From Escherichia phage DK-13, in the sequence record MT611523.1: 64,000 bases of DNA. One strand, written 5' to 3'. A program made the translations under genes and the position numbers. This document shows positions 261 to 64,000 of this stretch, piece after piece. The notes beneath the pieces were generated by a model. That model saw only the letters and a program-made list of their open reading frames with translations. It ran no database searches and was not told the DNA's origin. Each line of letters opens with the position of its first letter. The first letter of the stretch is position 1.

Positions 261-554
261 TTATTCACCTGTAACCCATTGAACAATTTTGCTATTGTCA
301 AATGAAGCATCGCAATACAGAACATAGTTATACTGCATAACGTCACCAGAAGTCAATTTGTCAGATACTTCTTTAACCATATCAGGGCGGTCACGTTTAG
401 TTATGTTCATAATATCAGCATAAATCTGATGTTCAACATCAGTCTGGTCGGCAGTCATAGACCACTCACAAAGGTCTTTATCAAGTCCAGCAGTAACTGG
501 AGCTGTACCACATGATGCTACGGTAAGAATTGCCGCGATTAATAACTTTTTCAT
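261..554 (-). CDS. sp: Periplasmic lipoprotein, Spackle (Sp/61.3)-like superinfection exclusion protein
   Basis: 97 aa; N-terminal signal peptide with lipobox-like LTVASCG; size and position in the 61.x block downstream of gene 41 match T4 sp; preceded by an early promoter cassette. Confidence 0.45.
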   Translation of the reverse strand: MKKLLIAAILTVASCGTAPVTAGLDKDLCEWSMTADQTDVEHQIYADIMNITKRDRPDMVKEVSDKLTSGDVMQYNYVLYCDASFDNSKIVQWVTGE

Positions 555-851: not shown

Positions 852-1055
852 TTAAATTTCCTCAATGCGGGCATCATATTCAAAAACTTTATTGTCATTA
901 ACAAAGGCTTTAACCAGCGCATTATTCACTTCTGCATACTGCACTGTAACCCATTCAATCATATTTTTGTCACTAACATCCAGCGCGGTTTCTTTGGTAA
1001 ACATATTACCGTTTTCAAACCAACCAATAAATACTACGTTCTCTAATTTATACAT
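852..1055 (-). CDS. dmd: Dmd-like protein (antitoxin against RnlA/LsoA-type RNase toxins)
   Basis: 67 aa; VVFIGWF...MFTKE...QYAEVNNALVKAF resembles T4 Dmd (61.5) as recalled from memory; located in the 61.x block near gene 41. Confidence 0.4.
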   Translation of the reverse strand: MYKLENVVFIGWFENGNMFTKETALDVSDKNMIEWVTVQYAEVNNALVKAFVNDNKVFEYDARIEEI

Positions 1056-5122: not shown

Positions 5123-5266
5123 CTAATTAAAACATTCATAGCGGGCTTGGAGCCCCAAAAATACCCAACCCAAAATTAAAGTTGGAATCATATGTGGAGT
5201 CATTATTGCCCAGTAGATTGACATACTAAAAAATGCAATCAGTACAATAATTGTAATTATCTTCAT
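5123..5266 (-). CDS. Small membrane protein (47 aa, imm.1-like position)
   Basis: Hand-translated MKIITIIVLIAFFSMSIYWAIMTPHMIPTLILGWVFLGLQARYECFN; its ATG overlaps the imm stop as ATGA. Confidence 0.35.
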   Translation of the reverse strand: MKIITIIVLIAFFSMSIYWAIMTPHMIPTLILGWVFLGLQARYECFN

Positions 5267-5505
5267 TTTGATTCCTTGATGATAATTACTTGTGCGTTTG
5301 ATTTACGTTCAGCAACGAGTGCCCAGATAAATGCAATAAACCATCCGACCATTGTCCAACCTAACAGAAGGTTAACAAAGAAGATTCCGCAATTACTTTT
5401 GGTACCACGCAGCAGCGCGATAATCCACGGCAGAAAATATGCCAGTGCAGCCAGGAAGAAAGAACCAGCCCCAAGAACAACAGTACCCGCAATTAATGTT
5501 TCCAT
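5263..5505 (-). CDS. imm: Imm superinfection immunity membrane protein
   Basis: 80 aa, two TM segments, YFLPWIIALLRG...NLLLGWTMVGWFIAFIWAL resembles the superinfection immunity family; directly upstream of gene 43 as in T4. Confidence 0.7.
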   Translation of the reverse strand: METLIAGTVVLGAGSFFLAALAYFLPWIIALLRGTKSNCGIFFVNLLLGWTMVGWFIAFIWALVAERKSNAQVIIIKESK

Positions 5506-23939: not shown

Positions 23940-24112
23940 CAGAATGCCTCATCAGAAAAGCGGAGTTGAGCTTCAAGCCAATGAATGTAGTCAGCTGCAG
24001 CAAAAATTAAAGCAGATTCTTCATCGGGTAACTTATGAGAATCTGACAATTCGTAAAGTGAATGCTCAATCAGACGGCCTTTGTGACGGCCAACTTCAAT
24101 TTTGGTACTCAT
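23939..24112 (-). CDS. Small hypothetical protein (57 aa)
   Basis: Hand-translated ORF MSTKIEVGRHKGRLIEHSLYELSDSHKLPDEES...; stop overlaps the start of the downstream gene. Confidence 0.3.
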   Translation of the reverse strand: MSTKIEVGRHKGRLIEHSLYELSDSHKLPDEESALIFAAADYIHWLEAQLRFSDEAF

Positions 24113-35905: not shown

Positions 35906-36181
35906 TTATAATCTTTTAAAATTAAAGCAGTACTCTGAAAATAAACTTGCAAAATTACGTTCGACCCAGACCCGTTGTTTTGGGCTGGTAATCGTTGACA
36001 AATAGTACGCTTGTTGCAGGCTTATTCCGTTTTTATTCGGGCACTCTTTGTTGAACGAGTGATAGGTACTTGCAACGATTTCGACTTCGCGCTCATACCT
36101 TTCCTGGTCCTGTTGCATAGGAACAAAAACCAAAACCAGGAATATCAAAATAGAGATATACGTCCAAACCTTGTATACCAT
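35906..36181 (-). CDS. Membrane-anchored protein
   Basis: 91 aa; N-terminal hydrophobic helix. Confidence 0.45.
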   Translation of the reverse strand: MVYKVWTYISILIFLVLVFVPMQQDQERYEREVEIVASTYHSFNKECPNKNGISLQQAYYLSTITSPKQRVWVERNFASLFSEYCFNFKRL

Positions 36182-36188
36182 GCGAACC

Positions 36189-36761
36189 TCAGCTTGTTAA
36201 TTCGAGCCAATGTTTTCTGCACAAAGATACGTACGATTCATTCCCACCGACCAATACTTGCTCGCCGTCCTTTACAGCAGCACCGTCGATTACTCGAGCG
36301 GTCATGGTTGCTTTCCGGCCGCAATGACAGACGCCCTTTAATTCAACCAGTTTATCCGAAATAGCCAGAAGTCTGGCCGAACCGGGAAATAATTGACCCC
36401 GAAAATCTGTTCTTAACCCGTAACACATAACGGGAATATTGTAATTATCAACCACTTGAGCTAACTGGTCAATTTGCTCTGGTAACAAAAATTGAGCTTC
36501 ATCGACCAGGACACAATGGATATCCTTTTGAGACTCGGCCCATTTATAGAATTCAAACAGGTTCATGTCGGCCGTTACCAGGTTTGCTTCCTGGCTAATA
36601 CCGATGCGTGATTTAATTTCGCCTTCCGAGTCCCGATTATCAATAACAGGTTTTAGCAAAAGCACACTCATTCCACGCTCTTTATAGGAATAAGCTGCAG
36701 TCAGCAATGAAGCTGTTTTGCCTGCATTCATTGCTGCGTAATGATAAATTAAACTCGCCAT
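36189..36761 (-). CDS. tk: Thymidine kinase
   Basis: 190 aa; P-loop AAMNAGKTASLL and C-terminal Cys zinc ribbon; T4 Tk-like. Confidence 0.9.
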   Translation of the reverse strand: MASLIYHYAAMNAGKTASLLTAAYSYKERGMSVLLLKPVIDNRDSEGEIKSRIGISQEANLVTADMNLFEFYKWAESQKDIHCVLVDEAQFLLPEQIDQLAQVVDNYNIPVMCYGLRTDFRGQLFPGSARLLAISDKLVELKGVCHCGRKATMTARVIDGAAVKDGEQVLVGGNESYVSLCRKHWLELTS

Positions 36762-36770
36762 ATCACCTTC

Positions 36771-36956
36771 TTAAAGCGTATTCACATAAGCTATTAATTC
36801 GTTTTCTTTCGCATCAAATCGATTGGCAAATTCTTCCTGATGTTCGGCATCTATTGGACCGTATTCATCATAAAAGGCGTTTGCTTCTGTATGCTCATCC
36901 AAAAGCTCATGGATAAGCTCAAATAATCTACTTTTCTGACTAATGCTTAAACTCAT
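36771..36956 (-). CDS. Hypothetical protein (tk.x)
   Basis: 61 aa acidic ORF. Confidence 0.4.
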   Translation of the reverse strand: MSLSISQKSRLFELIHELLDEHTEANAFYDEYGPIDAEHQEEFANRFDAKENELIAYVNTL

Positions 36957-37159
36957 TTCGGTTCCCCATATCGCACAAATTTAGGATGTTCGCAATAACC
37001 AGAATGAAAACCTTCACCCTTATGATTAGAACATCCTTTATTAGAACAGTACCACCAGTAATCAAATTCACATTCCATTTCATCGTTGCACAAAGCTGCG
37101 ATTACTGGCCATTCACATTTTTCACATTTGGCCGTTTTAAGAATTCGGGCTTGGCTCAT
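36953..37159 (-). CDS. Cys-rich small protein (tk.x)
   Basis: 68 aa with multiple CxxC-like motifs. Confidence 0.45.
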   Translation of the reverse strand: MSQARILKTAKCEKCEWPVIAALCNDEMECEFDYWWYCSNKGCSNHKGEGFHSGYCEHPKFVRYGEPK

Positions 37160-37332
37160 AATTCAATTCCGTCCATAGCCAAAATTCTTTTTCGTTGGGC
37201 CTTGAGAGCCTCGGCAGCTTGGTCATAATCTTCTTTACTGCCGTGGGGTTGTAAAGCTGCCACCTTTTTAGCTAAATGAATAAGCTTATCTAAGTTTTCA
37301 ACAATACGTTCTTGTTCTTCATTCAGGCTCAT
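37156..37332 (-). CDS. Small hypothetical protein (58 aa)
   Basis: Hand-translated ORF MSLNEEQERIVENLDKLIHLAKKVAALQPHGSKEDYDQAAEALKAQRKRILAMDGIEL; stop overlaps the next start; coordinates approximate. Confidence 0.3.
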   Translation of the reverse strand: MSLNEEQERIVENLDKLIHLAKKVAALQPHGSKEDYDQAAEALKAQRKRILAMDGIEL

Positions 37333-37783
37333 AATCCACCACTATCAAATCAATGTCAGGGGTAAAAATATCAATTAACATAGAGACCTTTTCCCAATCT
37401 CCACCTGCAATACCACATCCAATCCGTGGGATATAAACCACTGGTCGGAATAGTGTTCCTTCACTCAGGACTCGATTTAATTCTACCATACAATTTACTA
37501 AAGCATGATAATCAAGATTTGGTCCTGGTTCATATTGGGTGTAAAGATTAAAGCAAGTTGACGGACCTCGGGAATATTTGAAAACAATAGACATATCGCC
37601 TAGTTTTCCTCTGTAACCATAGTCGGTTGAGGTTTTGTCTATTTCTAAAATCCTTGGATAAGCCTTCGCCAACTGACCAGCTACTCCTGAACCCATTGTA
37701 TGGAAGCAATTGCAACCATGTGCAATGTTTTTACCACTAAGAAAGAGGGCGACGATATCGCCCTTAATATACTGGGTAATCAT
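37319..37783 (-). CDS. Macro-domain-like protein (putative ADP-ribose binding/processing)
   Basis: 154 aa; GDIVAL...NIAHGCNCFHTMGSGVAGQL and IPRIGCGIAGGDWEKV align to the two glycine-rich ADP-ribose-binding loops of macro domains. Confidence 0.5.
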   Translation of the reverse strand: MITQYIKGDIVALFLSGKNIAHGCNCFHTMGSGVAGQLAKAYPRILEIDKTSTDYGYRGKLGDMSIVFKYSRGPSTCFNLYTQYEPGPNLDYHALVNCMVELNRVLSEGTLFRPVVYIPRIGCGIAGGDWEKVSMLIDIFTPDIDLIVVDYEPE

Positions 37784-38139
37784 TTAGAGTTCAACCCTCT
37801 ATTATATGAATCCACTAACCTGTCAACCATACTGGTGCAGGCCGCCTTATATTTTGCACTTGAAAGAATGCAATCCATTTCAAATAATTTCTTTTCATAT
37901 TTGTTGGATAATACATTCTTTTTCAAAAGTGTATGTTCAACATCATTTTGGCCATCTTTATATGCCGCGGTGAGCTTGGCGCTGAACTGGATTACACAAT
38001 CCACATTGCTTGGTGCGCAATAATCTTTAGCCGTCCTCGTTGCATATTCTATGATGCTGTTGTTGTCATCGCTCTGTACTGAAGCTATTCCTCCCATGCT
38101 GAATACTAACCCTATGGCTAAAGTGATAACTCTTACCAT
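37780..38139 (-). CDS. Secreted/periplasmic protein
   Basis: 119 aa; signal peptide MVRVITLAIGLVFSMGGIASV; several Cys. Confidence 0.5.
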   Translation of the reverse strand: MVRVITLAIGLVFSMGGIASVQSDDNNSIIEYATRTAKDYCAPSNVDCVIQFSAKLTAAYKDGQNDVEHTLLKKNVLSNKYEKKLFEMDCILSSAKYKAACTSMVDRLVDSYNRGLNSK

Positions 38140-38141
38140 TT

Positions 38142-38684
38142 TTAATCCACCGTTTTTAATAGGCCTCGTGATTTTAAGTAGTTAGCTTTTTCTAGGACCT
38201 GTGAAGCATACGTATTACCAGCTTTCACATTCCATCCTGCGTTATATGATGATAGTGTTTTCCTTATATCCCCCTTATGAATATTCAACCAGTATGAAAG
38301 CTCAATGTAAGCCCAGCGTGCACTGTTCTCTCTCTTGCTTATCATCTTGATTATTTCTTTATCTGTCATTGTCCACCCAACCTGTTTCACGCGTTCGCGC
38401 ACGGTTGGAAGATAATTTTGGAATATACCATATGCATGATGCTTATCTTTATTTAATCCAGTATTAATCCCAGCAGAACTCTCCTGCCAGGTTAAACCAG
38501 CCATGATATATCCCAAACCATTATGTTGGTGCGGATTTTCTTTGTACTTACCATTTTTCTGGAACTGTTCTCCAAACGCATAAGCATATTGGAGGTTTTC
38601 CATTTGTTCATTACTGAAAGTAGGCTCTACGCTATGGGCAGACATACTAACTGTCAATAGTAAGGTGGCGATTACTTTTTTCAT
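38142..38684 (-). CDS. Secreted lytic-transglycosylase-like protein
   Basis: 180 aa; signal peptide MKKVIATLLLTVSMSAHS; WQESSAGI...AYGIFQ and SSYNAGWN resemble the SLT motifs ES...GLMQ and YN.G. Confidence 0.45.
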   Translation of the reverse strand: MKKVIATLLLTVSMSAHSVEPTFSNEQMENLQYAYAFGEQFQKNGKYKENPHQHNGLGYIMAGLTWQESSAGINTGLNKDKHHAYGIFQNYLPTVRERVKQVGWTMTDKEIIKMISKRENSARWAYIELSYWLNIHKGDIRKTLSSYNAGWNVKAGNTYASQVLEKANYLKSRGLLKTVD

Positions 38685-38694
38685 GAATTCCCCA

Positions 38695-39153
38695 TTAGAT
38701 ATAAATCACTTTTGTGCTAATTTTTCCTTCCAGACGATTAGAGTTAACAAACGCCATACGACAACACATGGTCGGAGACTTCCCAGGAATAGCGGGGTTA
38801 ACTGTCATTCCTAACCACAGGTTCTTGTCCGTGATTTCCAGACGAAGTGGACGGTAGTTCACATTCGGGTCAATTTGTGCTTCAACTTCCGGGAGTGGTT
38901 TCATCTCCAAGAATTCAACGATTTCTTTTACATGTGGTGTGATTTTTCCAAACAAGTCAAAAACATATTGTTCATCAATTTCACGTTGGATTGCACGGTC
39001 CAACAGGTGTGGACTGTACTTAATGAAGAATGCCTCAAGGCCTGCTTCTTTACAAGCCTTGTTGATAGCATTATTAATTTTGAGGAACTCCGTTTCAAAA
39101 ATGCGACGAAGTTTATTGCGGCGAATGTAAACACTTGAATCGATAGTAGTCAT
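38695..39153 (-). CDS. regB: RegB sequence-specific endoribonuclease
   Basis: Start at MTTIDSS gives 152 aa; strongly similar to T4 RegB (IRRNKLRR.FE.EF..INN...YS.HLLDRAIQREIDE.YVF.LF...CRMA..NS.RL.GK). Confidence 0.85.
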   Translation of the reverse strand: MTTIDSSVYIRRNKLRRIFETEFLKINNAINKACKEAGLEAFFIKYSPHLLDRAIQREIDEQYVFDLFGKITPHVKEIVEFLEMKPLPEVEAQIDPNVNYRPLRLEITDKNLWLGMTVNPAIPGKSPTMCCRMAFVNSNRLEGKISTKVIYI

Positions 39154-39209
39154 GATTATCTCCTTTTGTTTGATGGGATAATCATAACTCATTTCAATCT
39201 GCTTGTACA

Positions 39210-39789
<580 letters not shown>

Positions 39790-39793
<4 letters not shown>

Positions 39794-40008
39794 TTTACTT
39801 CCTCATCAGATGCAGTATCATATTCTACCAAACGAAGGCCATCATATCCACCACGAACAGAGATATATGTGCTCGGATAAACAATTTCTTTACCGTTCCA
39901 TTGGCCGCCGTCCCAACATTCCATAAAGTCTTGTTCGCCTTGTCCCTGGAACCAATCAACAAACATCTTCAGAGCTTCATCAGAGCCTTCAATTGTCAAT
40001 TTAGACAT
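39790..40008 (-). CDS. Hypothetical protein
   Basis: 72 aa ORF. Confidence 0.45.
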
Positions 40009-40297
40009 ATTTTTTCCAATCAGAAATCATATGAATCTCTTGGTCATAAGTCAAGAGACTACGAGTAATAATACCCTTACAAGGCCCAGAAATAAATTCC
40101 AGAGTAAAGTAAGGAACCTGTTTCATTAATCGGATGCTTGGCGCATGACATCTAAAACGAGAGCCCTTAAAGGGCCCTGTCATGAATACATATTCTAATG
40201 GATAGAAATAAGCATATTCGAAATTTGTAGTAAGGTCCTCTCTTCGGACCTTACGTGAGAAATAGCAGAACTCAAAAAGTTCTTCATCAGTCATCAT
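40001..40297 (-). CDS. Hypothetical protein
   Basis: 98 aa ORF. Confidence 0.45.
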   Translation of the reverse strand: MMTDEELFEFCYFSRKVRREDLTTNFEYAYFYPLEYVFMTGPFKGSRFRCHAPSIRLMKQVPYFTLEFISGPCKGIITRSLLTYDQEIHMISDWKKYV

Positions 40298-40821
40298 TGC
40301 ATTCCTATCACAAAGAACAGTGGCAGAGGTTTAGAACCTTGGCACATAAATTTATTCATCATTGTCTGATAAGCTTCATAGAACTTATCCATCGCTGGTA
40401 GGCGAATAGGCTCTTCAATAATAATCAATAATCGGGTAACAGACAGTCCACGATATTTGTGAAAATGATCTTCATCTAAAAATGAACGAACAGTATCATA
40501 TACAACAAAACCAGGTCGTTCAACATTAAGATGTGGCTGTGCTTTAGAAACCCGCTTTATTATATCACAGATTTCTCGTGAGCGATGCGAAGAACTCGAC
40601 ATAACAATTACATCATTACCCTTAGAAACCCAATCCGCAGCAAATTGTGCAATGGCACTTGTTTTACCTGTTTGCCTTCCGCCGTCAAGTCTAAGAGTAC
40701 CAAACTCTTGCATTCTTGAAGCGGGTTCATACCAGGTGTATTGGTCTGAATCTAAGCGTTCAATGGCGCGTTCAGCGAAGGCGTGCATTAAGGTTAGATA
40801 AATGGGAGTTAAAAATTTCAT
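40294..40821 (-). CDS. P-loop NTPase-like protein
   Basis: 175 aa; Walker A-like GGRQTGKTS. Confidence 0.5.
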   Translation of the reverse strand: MKFLTPIYLTLMHAFAERAIERLDSDQYTWYEPASRMQEFGTLRLDGGRQTGKTSAIAQFAADWVSKGNDVIVMSSSSHRSREICDIIKRVSKAQPHLNVERPGFVVYDTVRSFLDEDHFHKYRGLSVTRLLIIIEEPIRLPAMDKFYEAYQTMMNKFMCQGSKPLPLFFVIGMQ

Positions 40822-55047: not shown

Positions 55048-55738
<691 letters not shown>

Positions 55739-59750: not shown

Positions 59751-61489
59751 TTAATATGTCAGATAATGTAAGTTGGTTCGTCGGTGTTGTCGAAGACCGA
59801 ATGGACCCACTTCAACAAGGTCGAGTCCGTGTCCGTGTATGGGGTATGCATCCATATGAGAAATCGCAAGGACCTGTAAAAGGTATCAGAACTGAAGACC
59901 TGCCATGGATGTCTGTACTGATGCCAACATCATCTGCATCAGTTTCTGGTATTCAAACTGCAATGACCGGTATGGTGCCAGGGACTCAGGTATATGGTCA
60001 CTTTTTAGACAAGTGGAAACTCAACGGACTTGTTATTGGTACGTATGGTTCAACCTCAAGACAAAAAGCAAATCCCAACGAAGGCTTCTCTGACCCCACA
60101 GGACAATATCCACTTTATGTAGGTAATGATGCTGCTGCGCTCAACCGAGGCGGTGAGGTCGGTTACGATGCAACTTCGAACGTAATTCAGGATGCAAACA
60201 CCGATGTAGGTATTAACCCTGATGGCCTTGATTTGAGTCAAGTTAAGCCAGATGATAATCCTAATTTCACAATTGAAAATATGCTTCACCGTGATGAAGG
60301 TCTTCGTTTGAAAGTATATTGGGACACCGAAGGTTATCCTACTATAGGTATAGGACACTTAATTGCACCACAACCTATTAGAGATATGAATCAGATAAAC
60401 AAAATATTATCTAATCAAATAGGCCGTGAAGTTAAAGGTAACCCTGGTGCAATATCAATGGACGAGGCTTCTAAGTTATTCCAGGAAGACCTTAAAAAAG
60501 TTCAAAACGATATAGGCCGGCATAGTGTTGTAGGCCCGGTTTACAATAAAGAAAACCGTTCGAGACAAATGGCTCTTGAAAACATGGCTTTCCAAATGGG
60601 ATTGGGTGGATTGGCTAAATTCCGTGGAATGCTTAGCGCAATGTTAGTAGGTGATTATAAAAAAGCATTTGAGGAAGCTCGTAATTCAGTATGGTTTAAC
60701 CAAACTAAAGGCCGTGCATCAAGGGTGTCAATGATTATCCTCACAGGTAACATGGAATCATATGGTATTATGGCCCCTAAAGAAAGGTCATTTAAAGGGC
60801 GTTCATATAGGATGATTCAAACCTTTGTAGCCCCTGCAAATTCTGACCCAGCCGACCCGTGGACTCCAGAAGATACGAGGATTCTGTTTAAAGAGCCAGA
60901 ATCCAGTTACAAGGGCGAATATCCTTATGTGCAGACAATGCAAACTGAAGGCGGTCATATTCAGGAATTCGATAATACCCCTGGACAAGAACGTTATCGA
61001 CTGATTCACCCGACCGGTTCCTACGAGGAAGTTGCACCAGATGGTCGTAAGACTTCGAAGACGGTAGCTGATGGTTATTATATGACCCAGGGTGATTCGA
61101 GTACTTATGTTGGTGGTAATAATAAAGTCAACGTTGGTGGTGATGAAACCTATTACAATATGGCTAATGTTCGACGTCAGACCGATGGAAACGAAAGCAT
61201 TCATATTCGTGGGAATGAAACCAAAACCATTGAAGGTGACGGTACAATTATTGTCAAAGGTAATGTAAGTATTCTGGTCGAAGGTAATGCTGAAATAACT
61301 GTTAAAGGTGACGCAAAAACTCTTGTCGAAGGTAACCATGATTATACGGTAAATGGTAATGTCAAATGGTCCGTTAATGGAAACGTTGATATGACCGTGG
61401 CTGGCAATTGGTCCGAAACAATGTCAACAATGAGTTCTATTGCATCTGGTCAATATACTATTGATGGTTCGAGGATTGACATTGGCTAA
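59747..61489 (+). CDS. 5: gp5 baseplate hub and tail lysozyme (cell-puncturing device)
   Basis: 580 aa; central lysozyme domain (GLRLKVYWDTEGYPTIGIGHLI) and C-terminal VxGxxxxx beta-helix repeats. Confidence 0.95.
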   Translation: MINMSDNVSWFVGVVEDRMDPLQQGRVRVRVWGMHPYEKSQGPVKGIRTEDLPWMSVLMPTSSASVSGIQTAMTGMVPGTQVYGHFLDKWKLNGLVIGTYGSTSRQKANPNEGFSDPTGQYPLYVGNDAAALNRGGEVGYDATSNVIQDANTDVGINPDGLDLSQVKPDDNPNFTIENMLHRDEGLRLKVYWDTEGYPTIGIGHLIAPQPIRDMNQINKILSNQIGREVKGNPGAISMDEASKLFQEDLKKVQNDIGRHSVVGPVYNKENRSRQMALENMAFQMGLGGLAKFRGMLSAMLVGDYKKAFEEARNSVWFNQTKGRASRVSMIILTGNMESYGIMAPKERSFKGRSYRMIQTFVAPANSDPADPWTPEDTRILFKEPESSYKGEYPYVQTMQTEGGHIQEFDNTPGQERYRLIHPTGSYEEVAPDGRKTSKTVADGYYMTQGDSSTYVGGNNKVNVGGDETYYNMANVRRQTDGNESIHIRGNETKTIEGDGTIIVKGNVSILVEGNAEITVKGDAKTLVEGNHDYTVNGNVKWSVNGNVDMTVAGNWSETMSTMSSIASGQYTIDGSRIDIG

Positions 61490-61499
61490 TATACTTCCA

Positions 61500-62021
61500 A
61501 TGAGCACTGACCTAGGAGACTCCATGGAAGGAGACTCAATCGATGTTACGTTTACGGCTCAATTAGAAACAAACGAAACATTAGTCGAAATAAATATAAC
61601 TGAATATGAGGCCACCCCTGGCGTTAATGTTGAGGAGAATCATCTTTATGGTGTTTATGAATCCGTGTTCGGATTCGCAGATGATGCACTTAAATATCGG
61701 CTTAATGATGAATTCAAAACTGCCGGTTCATGGGAAGACCTTCCTACCGATAAGAGTACTCAATTGTATCTCTGGAGGGCCCCAGCGAGCCTCCAGAAGG
61801 TCTTTTCATACACGGTAACCCTAACCTATGACTTTCAAGAAGAGAGCTCTGGTGGAGACACAGGGAGCTCTGGTGGCAGTAATAGCCGTGCAGGTAATGA
61901 GACCGACCCACCTCCTGCTCCAGTAAGAAAAACAATGACAAAAGTTTACACAAAAACTATCGTTGGTAACTGGTCAAGATGGGCAGATAAATTGCGTTCA
62001 TACGTATACGCGAGGGATTAA
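61500..62021 (+). CDS. gp5.1-like protein
   Basis: Start at MSTDLGDS just after the gp5 stop; position between 5 and 5.4. Confidence 0.55.
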
Positions 62022-62314
62022 TGGCTGGATTAAGTTTTAATCAATGTGTTACAGCAGGTCACGAAGCATGGCCACCGACTGTAATTAATGCAACTCAAGG
62101 TAAAGTATTCACCGGCGGAATTCCGGTGTTAGTTGCCGGAGACCCTATTACCGAGCATACCGAAATTAAAAAACCATATGAAACTCACGGTGGAGTAACA
62201 CAACCGCGCACATCAAAAGTATTTGTTACCGGTAAGAAAGCTGTTCAAATGGCAGACCCGATTTCATGTGGTGATACTGTGGCTCAAGCCTCATCAAAAG
62301 TCTTTATAAAATAG
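62021..62314 (+). CDS. 5.4: gp5.4 PAAR-repeat tail spike tip
   Basis: 97 aa (same as T4 gp5.4); immediately upstream of gene 6. Confidence 0.8.
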
Positions 62315-62322
62315 GAAATAAA

Positions 62323-64000
62323 ATGGCTACTCCTACGAATTACCAATTAACAAGAACCGTTAACGCTATCCCAAAAGTATTTGTGGGAGCTACGTTTGAA
62401 GAAATTAAAAAGAACATCATCGACTGGTTATCAAGCCAGGATGAATTTAAGGATTATGATTTCGTCGGTTCGCGAATGAATATCCTGATTGATATGCTTG
62501 CATACAATACATTGTATATGCAACAGTTTGCTAACACGGCAGTTTACGAATCATTTATCGGAACTGCAAATCTAAGGTCTTCGGTTGTTCAGGCTGCACA
62601 GGATAATGGTTATCTTCCATCTTCACGTTCGGCCGCAAAGACTTCGGTTATGTTGACATGTTCTCATGCTCTGCAACCATCGAATATTGAAATCCCACGA
62701 GGAACTAAATTCCTGGCATATGCTCGTGATACATCAGCTGACCCTTATGTTTTTGTTACCACGGAAAACGTTATCGCGGTTAAAGACATTAACAACCAAT
62801 ACCTTCCGATTGTATCTCTAGCCCAGGGCCGTATTATTCGTACAGAACTTTTATATGACCCGAAACAACCTATTCTTATTCGCGACCCGGATATCGACCG
62901 CAAAGAAGTTAAGTTATATGTGAACGGTGTTGAGTGGGTTGACTGGACGAACAAATCAATGGTCCATGCTGGTTCGACTTCCACCATATTTTATATGCGT
63001 GAAACAATCGATGGCTATACTGAATTTTTCTTCGGTGAAGGTGAATCCACCAAATCTGTAGCCGGCGGCGTTATGGAAGCCAACTATATTGGCGGTCTCA
63101 AACCTGTGCAAGATTCGACAATTGTTATTGAATATCTTCGTACCTCAGGGGCAGATGCAAACGGTGCAATTGATTTCAGTTATGCTGATACTTTGTCCTA
63201 TATAACAGTGGATAAAATTACTGAAAACTACAACGACGACCCTGATTATGTCGGTGCTGATGGTGGTGGTGACCCGGAAGATATCGAACGAATCCGTGAA
63301 CTGGCTGTTGTTAAACGTGAAGCACAGATGCGTGCTGTCACCGGGACGGATTATGATACCTTCGTATCCGAAAGATTTGGCTCAATCGTGCAAGCCGTAC
63401 AGACGTTTACAGACGCAAATAAACCTGGGTATGCGTTTATATCAGTTAAGCCTAAATCGGGCTTGTATCTCACCGCAGTGCAGCGTGAGGACATCCAGAA
63501 CTACCTTAGCGAGTTCAACGTATCAACAATTACACCCTCGGTAATTTCTCCGGATTATTTGTTCCTTAAACATAATATCAAAGTATCTTATGCGCTGAAC
63601 AAATTACAAGAATCTGAACAATGGTTGCAAGCACAAATCATTAATCAGATTGACCGTTATTATATCGATGAAGTTGAAATCTTTAACAGAAGTTTTGCTA
63701 AGTCAAAAATGCTTACGTATGTGGATAATACTGACCATAGTATTCTTGGTTCATCTGCAACCATTTCGATGGTGCGTGAAGTCCTGAACTTCTTTAAGAC
63801 TCCAGAATCCGGCATTAAATACTATAACCAGTATGGCAACCGTTCAGTCGAATCAAGTGAATTTGAATTTGTTCCGACCACAGGTGAAGCCTATAACGTT
63901 CGCATTGTTGCAACTGATAAAGATTCTCGTGGTGATGGTAAAATGGTAATTGGTCCATTCCGTCCAGGCGATGTTATTGAAAATGTAAACATCCAGCCTT
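62323..64000 (+). CDS. 6: gp6 baseplate wedge protein (partial, runs off window end)
   Basis: ATG at 62323 with AGGAAA RBS; translation MATPTNYQLTRTVNAIPKVFVGATFEEIKKNIIDWL... matches the T4 gp6 N-terminus; absent from the ORF track because no stop occurs in the window. Confidence 0.85.
   Translation, partial: MATPTNYQLTRTVNAIPKVFVGATFEEIKKNIIDWLSSQDEFKDYDFVGSRMNILIDMLAYNTLYMQQFANTAVYESFIGTANLRSSVVQAAQDNGYLPSSRSAAKTSVMLTCSHALQPSNIEIPRGTKFLAYARDTSADPYVFVTTENVIAVKDINNQYLPIVSLAQGRIIRTELLYDPKQPILIRDPDIDRKEVKLYVNGVEWVDWTNKSMVHAGSTSTIFYMRETIDGYTEFFFGEGESTKSVAGGVMEANYIGGLKPVQDSTIVIEYLRTSGADANGAIDFSYADTLSYITVDKITENYNDDPDYVGADGGGDPEDIERIRELAVVKREAQMRAVTGTDYDTFVSERFGSIVQAVQTFTDANKPGYAFISVKPKSGLYLTAVQREDIQNYLSEFNVSTITPSVISPDYLFLKHNIKVSYALNKLQESEQWLQAQIINQIDRYYIDEVEIFNRSFAKSKMLTYVDNTDHSILGSSATISMVREVLNFFKTPESGIKYYNQYGNRSVESSEFEFVPTTGEAYNVRIVATDKDSRGDGKMVIGPFRPGDVIENVNIQP

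What the first reader, a model, noticed from the sequence alone, without database searches (positions are those of the whole stretch)
37319..37783. Macro-domain-like protein in the tk-regB accessory block
The 154 aa protein has the two glycine-rich loops that bind ADP-ribose in macro domains (NIAHGCNCFHTMGSGVAGQL and IPRIGCGIAGGDWEKV) after an N-terminal GDIV strand. A phage macro domain could reverse ADP-ribosylation of phage DNA or protein, or hydrolyse ADP-ribose-derived immune signals. It is co-located with two signal-peptide proteins and a lytic-transglycosylase-like gene.
Basis: inference. Interest (0 to 1): 0.65.

Follow-up and report, generated by a model that had tools for sequence, protein, structure and literature searches.

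The report
Known phage macrodomain Tk.4 (AdfM)
The gene is a real macrodomain enzyme, but it is the ordinary counterpart of phage T4 gene tk.4 (adfM), which has already been shown to protect T4 from the bacterial DarTG2 defence that tags phage DNA with ADP-ribose.

Summary

The window is a Gaprivervirus, an SP18-like T4 relative. The gene is tk.4: it is 57% identical over its full length to T4 Tk.4 and lies in the same tk.3-tk.4-vs position.

A 2025 preprint showed that deleting T4 tk.4 sensitises T4 to DarTG2 and renamed the gene adfM. A distant PhiKZ macrodomain, also named AdfM, removes ADP-ribose placed on DNA by DarT2.

The most likely function is therefore removal of ADP-ribose from thymidine in single-stranded phage DNA.

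[quoted passage not shown] This matches Streptomyces SCO6735, which also cleaves thymidine-linked ADP-ribose.

Interest is low.

The parts
37319..37783 (-). tk.4 / adfM orthologue: a stand-alone 154-aa macrodomain protein
37670..37729 (-). ADP-ribose-binding loop 1 (residues 19-38, NIAHGCNCFHTMGSGVAGQL). H22, G23, N25, C26 and G33 are invariant in every family member that has a residue at those positions.
   Evidence: Residue census of 121 family members. H22 and N25 align with SCO6735 H24 and N27. Those residues were tested by mutagenesis in PMC9411070.
37535..37537 (-). Codon of Gln83 (CAA), at the position of the catalytic Lys of TARG1 (K84) and DarG (K80) and of the essential Gln85 of SCO6735
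   Evidence: HMMER alignments and a MAFFT alignment agree. Q is found in 121 of 121 relatives. The codon was read directly.
37385..37432 (-). ADP-ribose-binding (diphosphate) loop 2 (residues 118-133, IPRIGCGIAGGDWEKV). G122 and G124 are invariant and P119 and W130 nearly so. A126 sits at the position of TARG1 Asp125.
   Evidence: G124 aligns with SCO6735 G128.
37780..37783 (-). ATGA overlap of the vs stop codon with the tk.4 start codon (translational-coupling arrangement). At the other end, tk.4 overlaps the tk.3-like ORF by 14 nt (37319..37332).
   Evidence: Sequence and ORF coordinates. T4 has the same arrangement (tk.4 60922..61389, vs 61386..61733).

Best explanation
The ORF is the orthologue of T4 gene tk.4 (adfM, anti-DarT factor macrodomain) in a Gaprivervirus, an SP18-like T4 relative. 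It is a stand-alone macrodomain of the TARG1/DarG/SCO6735 (ALC1-like) class. It is made before replication and acts as an 'orphan antitoxin'. When the host toxin DarT2 ADP-ribosylates thymidines in single-stranded phage DNA, the enzyme binds the ADP-ribose between its two glycine-rich loops. It then hydrolyses the ribose-thymine N-glycosidic bond, which restores replicable DNA and defeats DarTG2 abortive infection. Shown here: macrodomain identity and fold, class membership, orthology and synteny with T4 tk.4, and the make-up of the active site. Shown by others for the T4 orthologue: loss of tk.4 sensitises T4 to DarTG2. Inferred: that this allele has the same activity. Also inferred: that catalysis follows the lysine-independent, Gln-dependent route described for SCO6735, because the DarG/TARG1 lysine is replaced by an invariant Gln83.
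Against: No biochemistry exists for this allele or, in the texts I read, for T4 Tk.4 itself. The preprint infers hydrolysis from structural similarity. The window protein is only 57% identical to T4 Tk.4, and the tk.3-tk.4 segment is locally much more divergent than its flanks, so specificity could differ. Two SCO6735 features that aid DNA handling are absent: Lys34 (Ser32 here) and the longer lysine-bearing mobile loop. Catalytically dead SCO6735 also inhibits DarT by direct interaction in vitro, so hydrolysis need not be the only mechanism.
Confidence: 0.8

Rival explanations
1. ADP-ribose-1''-phosphate phosphatase (Poa1p-like), the basis of the legacy RefSeq/PHROG name 'phosphatase'. It would clear a small-molecule by-product of RNA repair or splicing, or a toxic ADPr-phosphate metabolite.
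Against: The annotation is motif-based, not experimental. The only phenotype recorded for the T4 orthologue is loss of resistance to DarTG2. Activity on ADPr-1''-P is a common side activity of macrodomains and does not explain that phenotype.
Confidence: 0.05
2. A protein or RNA de-ADP-ribosylase. It would remove Asp/Glu-linked ADP-ribose from proteins or uracil-linked ADP-ribose from RNA, either to counter other ART-based host defences or to tune the phage's own Alt/ModA/ModB modifications. This could be its main role or an additional one.
For: TARG1 and SCO6735, the same class and for SCO6735 the same Gln active site, also act on protein substrates. TARG1, DarG and SCO6735 also reverse U-ADPr on RNA.
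Against: T4 Alt/Mod enzymes modify arginine (established knowledge), a linkage not known to be cleaved by macrodomains. No phenotype or partner ART supports this role. The screen that identified tk.4 was specific for DarTG2.
Confidence: 0.1
3. A hydrolase or sponge for ADP-ribose-derived immune signals (Thoeris gcADPR or His-ADPR), or for other soluble ADPr derivatives, as the first reader offered and as Iyer et al. 2022 predicted in general for phage macrodomains.
Against: The nearest structural and sequence relatives are all DNA/protein glycohydrolases of the TARG1/DarG class, not the ThsA type. No genetic or biochemical evidence exists for this role. The T4 phenotype is against DarTG2.
Confidence: 0.03
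4. Non-catalytic antitoxin mimic: the macrodomain neutralises DarT2 mainly by binding it (interaction-inhibition), as ICP1 AdfB does and as catalytically dead SCO6735 can do in vitro.
For: SCO6735 Q85A still inhibits DarT in vitro. AdfB works by direct binding. The locally divergent tk.4 allele would fit co-evolution with a protein partner.
Against: The protein lacks the C-terminal DarT-binding domain of DarG. All residues needed for catalysis in SCO6735 are invariant across 121 relatives, which argues for selection on enzymatic activity. The N23A active-site mutant of PhiKZ AdfM was the comparison in that paper's de-ADP-ribosylation assay (figure legend only).
Confidence: 0.05

Closest known systems
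T4 Tk.4 = AdfM (anti-DarT factor macrodomain; NP_049723, UniProt P13309)
   Same: Orthologue: 57% identity over the full length and the same size (154 against 155 aa). It sits in the same tk.3-tk.4-vs position, with the same start/stop overlap with vs. It has the same active-site residues, including the Gln.
   Different: 43% of residues differ. The window allele, and its 97%-identical copy in phage pEC-M719-6WT.2, is also only 80% identical to the Tk.4 of the otherwise 97-100% identical phage SP18. The function of this allele has not been tested.
Streptomyces coelicolor SCO6735 (PDB 5E3B) and Bacteroides BT1257 (PDB 2FG1/2AFC)
   Different: Tk.4 lacks their 5-6-residue longer 'mobile loop' with Lys89/Lys93, and has Ser/Ala where SCO6735 has Lys34. 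It is encoded by a phage rather than a bacterium.
DarG (DarG2) antitoxin macrodomain (PDB 5M3I, 5M31/5M3E, 7OMU)
   Different: There is no C-terminal DarT-binding domain (the match covers model positions 19-148 of 338, at 26.9 bits against a cut-off of 250). No adjacent darT is present. The catalytic Lys80 is replaced by Gln83.
Chimallivirus AdfM (PhiKZ gp104)
   Same: A phage-encoded stand-alone macrodomain that counters DarTG2 by removing ADP-ribose from DNA. It is a detectable homologue (hhalign probability 96.5%).
   Different: Only 23% identical. It keeps the DarG-type lysine (N23/K78) and is imported into the phage nucleus. It is a separate subfamily that shares the name.
Human TARG1/OARD1 (PDB 4J5R/4J5S)
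   Same: Top Foldseek hit (E 2e-9, TM 0.76-0.83). The size and loops are the same, and it also cleaves T-ADPr DNA and U-ADPr RNA.
   Different: The TARG1 catalytic dyad Lys84/Asp125 corresponds to Gln83/Ala126 here.

Membership tests
Macro domain superfamily (Pfam PF01661) | Profile score above the curated gathering threshold | tested here: met
   28.4 bits against a cut-off of 22, covering residues 22-134 and model positions 2-115 of 118.
Macro domain superfamily (Pfam PF01661) | Three-layer alpha/beta/alpha macro fold | tested here: met
Macro domain superfamily (Pfam PF01661) | Two glycine-rich ADP-ribose-binding loops | tested here: met
   Loop 1 is H22-G23-C24-N25...G31-x-G33 and loop 2 is P119-x-I121-G122-x-G124-I-A-G-G. 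Both are invariant or nearly invariant in 121 relatives.
Macro domain superfamily (Pfam PF01661) | Binding of ADP-ribose | not testable with these tools
   No docking or binding assay was available.
TARG1/DarG (lysine-type ALC1-like glycohydrolases) | Closest structural neighbours belong to this class | tested here: met
TARG1/DarG (lysine-type ALC1-like glycohydrolases) | Catalytic lysine (TARG1 K84, DarG K80) | tested here: not met
   The aligned residue is Gln83 in three independent alignments, and Q is found in 121 of 121 relatives.
TARG1/DarG (lysine-type ALC1-like glycohydrolases) | TARG1 Asp125 of the Lys/Asp dyad | tested here: not met
   The aligned residue is Ala126. It is A in 110 and G in 10 of 121 relatives.
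SCO6735/BT1257 subclass (glutamine-type) | Gln at the lysine position, plus His24, Asn27 and Gly128 equivalents | tested here: met
   Q83, H22, N25 and G124 are invariant in every relative with a residue at those positions. The roles of these residues are from PMC9411070.
SCO6735/BT1257 subclass (glutamine-type) | Extended lysine-bearing mobile loop, and Lys34 | tested here: not met
   The loop is 5-6 residues shorter (YTQYEPGPN against IGQHGMKTGSKGAP), and Ser32 sits at the Lys34 position.
DarG antitoxin of DarTG2 (NCBIfam NF048014) | Two-domain protein with a C-terminal DarT-binding domain, scoring above the equivalog cut-off | tested here: not met
   26.9 bits against a cut-off of 250. Only model positions 19-148 of 338 match, and the protein is 154 aa. 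PADLOC DarG matches positions 15-145 of 329.
DarG antitoxin of DarTG2 (NCBIfam NF048014) | Encoded next to a darT toxin gene | tested here: not met
   The neighbours are tk.3-like and vs. No ART was found in the ten flanking ORFs scanned.
T4 Tk.4/AdfM orthologous group | Full-length sequence similarity to T4 Tk.4 | tested here: met
   57% identity, 75% positives and E 2e-69 over 154 aa.
T4 Tk.4/AdfM orthologous group | Conserved genomic position between tk.3 and vs in the tk-regB block | tested here: met
T4 Tk.4/AdfM orthologous group | Protects the phage from DarTG2 | not testable with these tools
   Shown only for T4. It needs plaque assays with this phage or allele.
Poa1p-type ADP-ribose-1''-phosphate phosphatase | Equivalents of Poa1p H23 and S30 | tested here: inconclusive
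   H22 aligns with H23 and T29 with S30. T29 is variable in the family, being T in only 71 of 121 relatives. H22 is shared by the whole class.

The most novel reading that the evidence does not exclude
T4-type AdfM proteins may be a glutamine-type (SCO6735-like) lineage of anti-DarT macrodomains that arose independently of the lysine-type DarG and PhiKZ AdfM. They may have a broader substrate range (T-ADPr DNA plus Asp/Glu-ADPr protein or U-ADPr RNA). The locally replaced tk.3-tk.4 allele in this phage may reflect an arms race that tunes specificity towards different DarT2 variants or other ADP-ribosyltransferase defences.
Probability: 0.2. Interest if true: 0.45.

Novelty: already known. Interest (0 to 1): 0.2.

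Why it matters
It confirms that this Gaprivervirus carries the anti-DarTG2 factor found in T4. This is useful for predicting which DarTG2-bearing hosts the phage can infect, for example when choosing therapy phages. The only added insight is mechanistic. The whole T4-type AdfM family has a glutamine where DarG, TARG1 and PhiKZ AdfM have the catalytic lysine. That suggests SCO6735-like chemistry and gives a clear mutagenesis target (Q83, N25). The gene also sits in a locally hypervariable patch, as expected for a counter-defence locus.

Tried and rejected
(1) Regulatory signals. The sigma-70 promoter and terminator scan of 36000-40500 was not enriched over shuffles (16 sites against 11.5 +/- 3.6, and 4 against 3.3 +/- 1.6). 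The MotA-box search found no site just upstream of tk.4, only one inside it. I therefore assign no promoter, and take expression timing from T4 data.

(2) Vs.1 as a lytic transglycosylase. Pfam SLT scores 14.4 bits, below its cut-off of 21.3. NCBIfam gave nothing, and a PDB sequence search gave nothing. PHROG 600 is 'unknown function'. This remains a weak resemblance only.

(3) Vs. It has no Pfam or NCBIfam family.

(4) Residue mapping to PhiKZ gp104. BLASTP and hhalign disagree by one to several residues in the central strand. I relied on the shared T-K / T-Q motif and on that paper's own statement of K78, not on those alignments.

(5) A functional link with the neighbours (signal-peptide proteins, SLT-like gene) was rejected. 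They are the ordinary syntenic T4 genes vs and vs.1.

(6) The Thoeris-signal and Alt/Mod-reversal ideas were considered and ranked low (see rivals).

(7) The metagenome, genome and viral contig scans and the 1.84-billion-protein search were not used, because the family was already identified.

Full report
**Observation.** The six-frame ORF list shows a 154-aa ORF at exactly 37319..37783, on the minus strand. Its translation contains the quoted elements: GDIV at residues 8-11, NIAHGCNCFHTMGSGVAGQL at 19-38 and IPRIGCGIAGGDWEKV at 118-133. The start codon overlaps the stop codon of the upstream gene in an ATGA arrangement. The 3' end overlaps the next ORF by 14 nt. The only omission is the strand.

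**Is it a macrodomain?** Yes.
- Pfam Macro (PF01661) matches residues 22-134 at 28.4 bits, above the curated cut-off of 22.
- A PDB sequence search finds only macrodomains: BT1257, SCO6735, yeast Poa1p, M. tuberculosis DarG and human TARG1/OARD1.
- A profile built from 51 relatives raises these matches to 44-72 bits.
- An AlphaFold2 model built from that alignment is very confident (pLDDT 95.9, pTM 0.91).
- The top Foldseek hits are TARG1, Poa1p, DarG, BT1257 and SCO6735.

The protein therefore belongs to the TARG1/DarG/SCO6735 branch, called 'ALC1-like' in PMC9411070.

**Which gene is it?** Megablast places the region in T4-like phages of the genus Gaprivervirus. Shigella phage SP18 and many Escherichia phages match at 90-96%. 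In SP18 and in T4 the gene at this position is tk.4. It lies between tk.3 and vs in the leftward block tk-tk.2-tk.3-tk.4-vs-vs.1-regB. Pfam and tblastn confirm tk, the antiholin rI, regB, vs and vs.1 in the window.

The window protein is 57% identical to T4 Tk.4 over its whole length (E 2e-69) and 80% identical to SP18 Tk.4. Public records already call it 'macro domain-containing protein', 'macro domain protein' or 'phosphatase'. The T4 RefSeq note reads 'contains A1pp phosphatase motif'. Homologues occur in 2,733 of 50,697 phage records.

**What is known about the family.** Three published results bear on function.
- A transposon-sequencing study of T4 (bioRxiv 10.1101/2025.11.20.689424) found tk.4 as the single significant hit that becomes necessary on a host expressing DarTG2. 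A clean tk.4 knockout sensitised T4 to DarTG2. The authors renamed the gene adfM and inferred, from structural similarity to M. tuberculosis DarG, that it removes ADP-ribose from DNA.
- A separate study showed that a chimallivirus macrodomain (PhiKZ gp104, also named AdfM) removes DarT2-made ADP-ribose from DNA. That protein is needed for growth on DarTG2 hosts (PMC13309987).
- In T4 omics data, tk.4 is classed as early RNA / middle protein. It is thus expressed before replication, when DarT2 would act (supplement of PMC9697503).

**Mechanistic detail worked out here.** In TARG1 and DarG the key catalytic residue is a lysine (K84 and K80). TARG1 also uses Asp125. HMMER profile and single-sequence alignments and an independent MAFFT alignment all place Gln83 of the window protein at that lysine position. 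The aligned motifs are LYTQY here, LITKK in TARG1 and FPTKK in MtDarG. Ala126 sits at the Asp125 position.

The same position is Gln in BT1257 and SCO6735 (MIGQH). SCO6735 lacks both TARG1 residues yet cleaves thymidine-linked ADP-ribose on DNA efficiently and rescues cells from DarT. Q85A or Q85E abolishes its activity, N27S nearly abolishes it, and G128E reduces it substantially. H24Y also abolished activity, but that paper attributes the loss to a disrupted structure. The equivalents here are Q83, N25, G124 and H22. Q83 is invariant in 121 of 121 family members, and the other three in every member that has a residue there.

The T4-type AdfM family therefore has the SCO6735-type (glutamine) active site, not the DarG-type. 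It differs from SCO6735 and BT1257 in two ways:
- it lacks their longer, lysine-bearing mobile loop;
- it has Ser/Ala at the position of Lys34.

PhiKZ AdfM is only 23% identical (hhalign probability 96.5%). It keeps the lysine (N23/K78). The two 'AdfM' proteins are thus different subfamilies of one class.

The protein is not a DarG. The DarG models of NCBIfam and PADLOC match only over their N-terminal macrodomain, at 26.9 bits against a cut-off of 250. The protein has no C-terminal DarT-binding domain and no neighbouring darT.

**Most likely function.** This is the orthologue of T4 adfM. It is an orphan-antitoxin-like ADP-ribosyl glycohydrolase that removes ADP-ribose from thymidines in single-stranded phage DNA and so defeats DarTG2. 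I rate this at about 0.8.
- Shown here: fold, class, orthology, synteny and active-site composition.
- Shown by others: the T4 genetic phenotype, and the biochemistry of SCO6735 and PhiKZ AdfM.
- Inferred: that this 57%-identical allele does the same, by a Gln-dependent mechanism.

**Rivals.**
- The legacy 'phosphatase' (ADPr-1''-P, Poa1p-like) reading rests only on a motif.
- Protein or RNA de-ADP-ribosylation is possible as a side activity, because TARG1 and SCO6735 do both. No phenotype supports it.
- Thoeris-signal hydrolysis has no support.
- Purely stoichiometric inhibition of DarT2 is conceivable, since SCO6735 Q85A inhibits DarT in vitro. It is hard to reconcile with the strict conservation of the catalytic residues.

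**Novelty.** The gene, its macrodomain nature and the counter-defence role of its T4 orthologue are all on record, so this is 'already known'. Two modest points seem worth recording.
- The active site of the T4-type family is glutamine-type throughout. The T4 preprint compared Tk.4 with DarG, and the passages I read do not mention this difference.
- Relative to SP18, the DNA is 97-100% identical on both sides but only 38-81% identical across 37100-37700, which covers tk.3 and tk.4. Correspondingly, Vs, Vs.1 and RegB are 98-99% identical in protein while Tk.4 is 80%. SP18 Tk.3 gives no tblastn hit in the window. This is the mosaic pattern expected at a counter-defence locus.

**Verdict.** This is a correct first-stage call on an ordinary, already characterised gene family.

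Noticed in passing
window 37100-37700 (tk.3-like ORF and tk.4): This is a mosaic patch. DNA identity to phage SP18 is 97-100% on both flanks but drops to 38-81% here. Tk.4 is 80% identical in protein while Vs, Vs.1 and RegB are 98-99%, and SP18 Tk.3 gives no tblastn hit at all. The nearest copy of this allele (97.4%) is in Escherichia phage pEC-M719-6WT.2. This suggests allelic replacement at a counter-defence locus.
   Followed up: partly
window 39800-40100: A second locally divergent patch relative to SP18 (78-83% DNA identity against 97-100% around it), in the vs.4-vs.7 region of small ORFs.
   Followed up: no
window 37780-38139 (-), vs; T4 locus L002:5387-5734 (-): The 'valyl-tRNA synthetase modifier' Vs starts with a signal-peptide-like N-terminus in both the window phage (MVRVITLAIGLVFSMGGIASV) and T4 (MTKILVLCIGLISFSASASA). 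That is odd for a protein said to modify a cytoplasmic enzyme. It has no Pfam or NCBIfam family. The T4 preprint reports vs as the gene most depleted in minimal medium.
   Followed up: partly
window 38142-38684 (-), vs.1: This 180-aa protein has a signal-peptide-like N-terminus and, by eye, lytic-transglycosylase-like motifs (TWQESS, YGIFQ, SYNAG). However, the Pfam SLT match is below threshold (14.4 against 21.3 bits, E 0.029). There is no PDB sequence match, and PHROG 600 is 'unknown function'. Some GenBank records call it an SLT domain protein.
   Followed up: partly
window 37480-37505 (-), inside tk.4: A match to a T4 middle-promoter pattern (MotA box TGCTTTA, 13 nt, then TAGAAT) lies within the tk.4 coding sequence, pointing towards tk.3/tk.2/tk. 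The window holds 9 matches against 3.2 +/- 1.8 in shuffles. It could be an internal middle promoter for tk.
   Followed up: no
window 37746-37764 (-), 5' end of tk.4: A terminator-like GC-rich hairpin (AGGGCGATATCGTCGCCCT followed by a T-rich tail) lies inside the coding sequence just after the start codon, encoding KGDIVAL. The count of such sites in the region is not above chance (4 against 3.3).
   Followed up: no
window 55051-55503 (-); 858-1055 (-); 23942-24112 (-); 264-554 (-); 5266-5505 (-): Other known T4 counter-defence or exclusion genes lie in the same window, identified by tblastn with SP18 proteins. They are 57B (acb1, anti-CBASS; 98.7%), dmd (95%), the Lon inhibitor pin (96%), spackle (98%) and imm (99%).
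   Followed up: no
window 38695-39210 (-), regB: The mechanical ORF starts at a GTG and is 171 aa. The Pfam RegB model begins at residue 23, and the 165-aa SP18 RegB maps to 38698..39192. T4 RegB is annotated at 62279..62740, about 153 aa. The true start is therefore probably internal.
   Followed up: no
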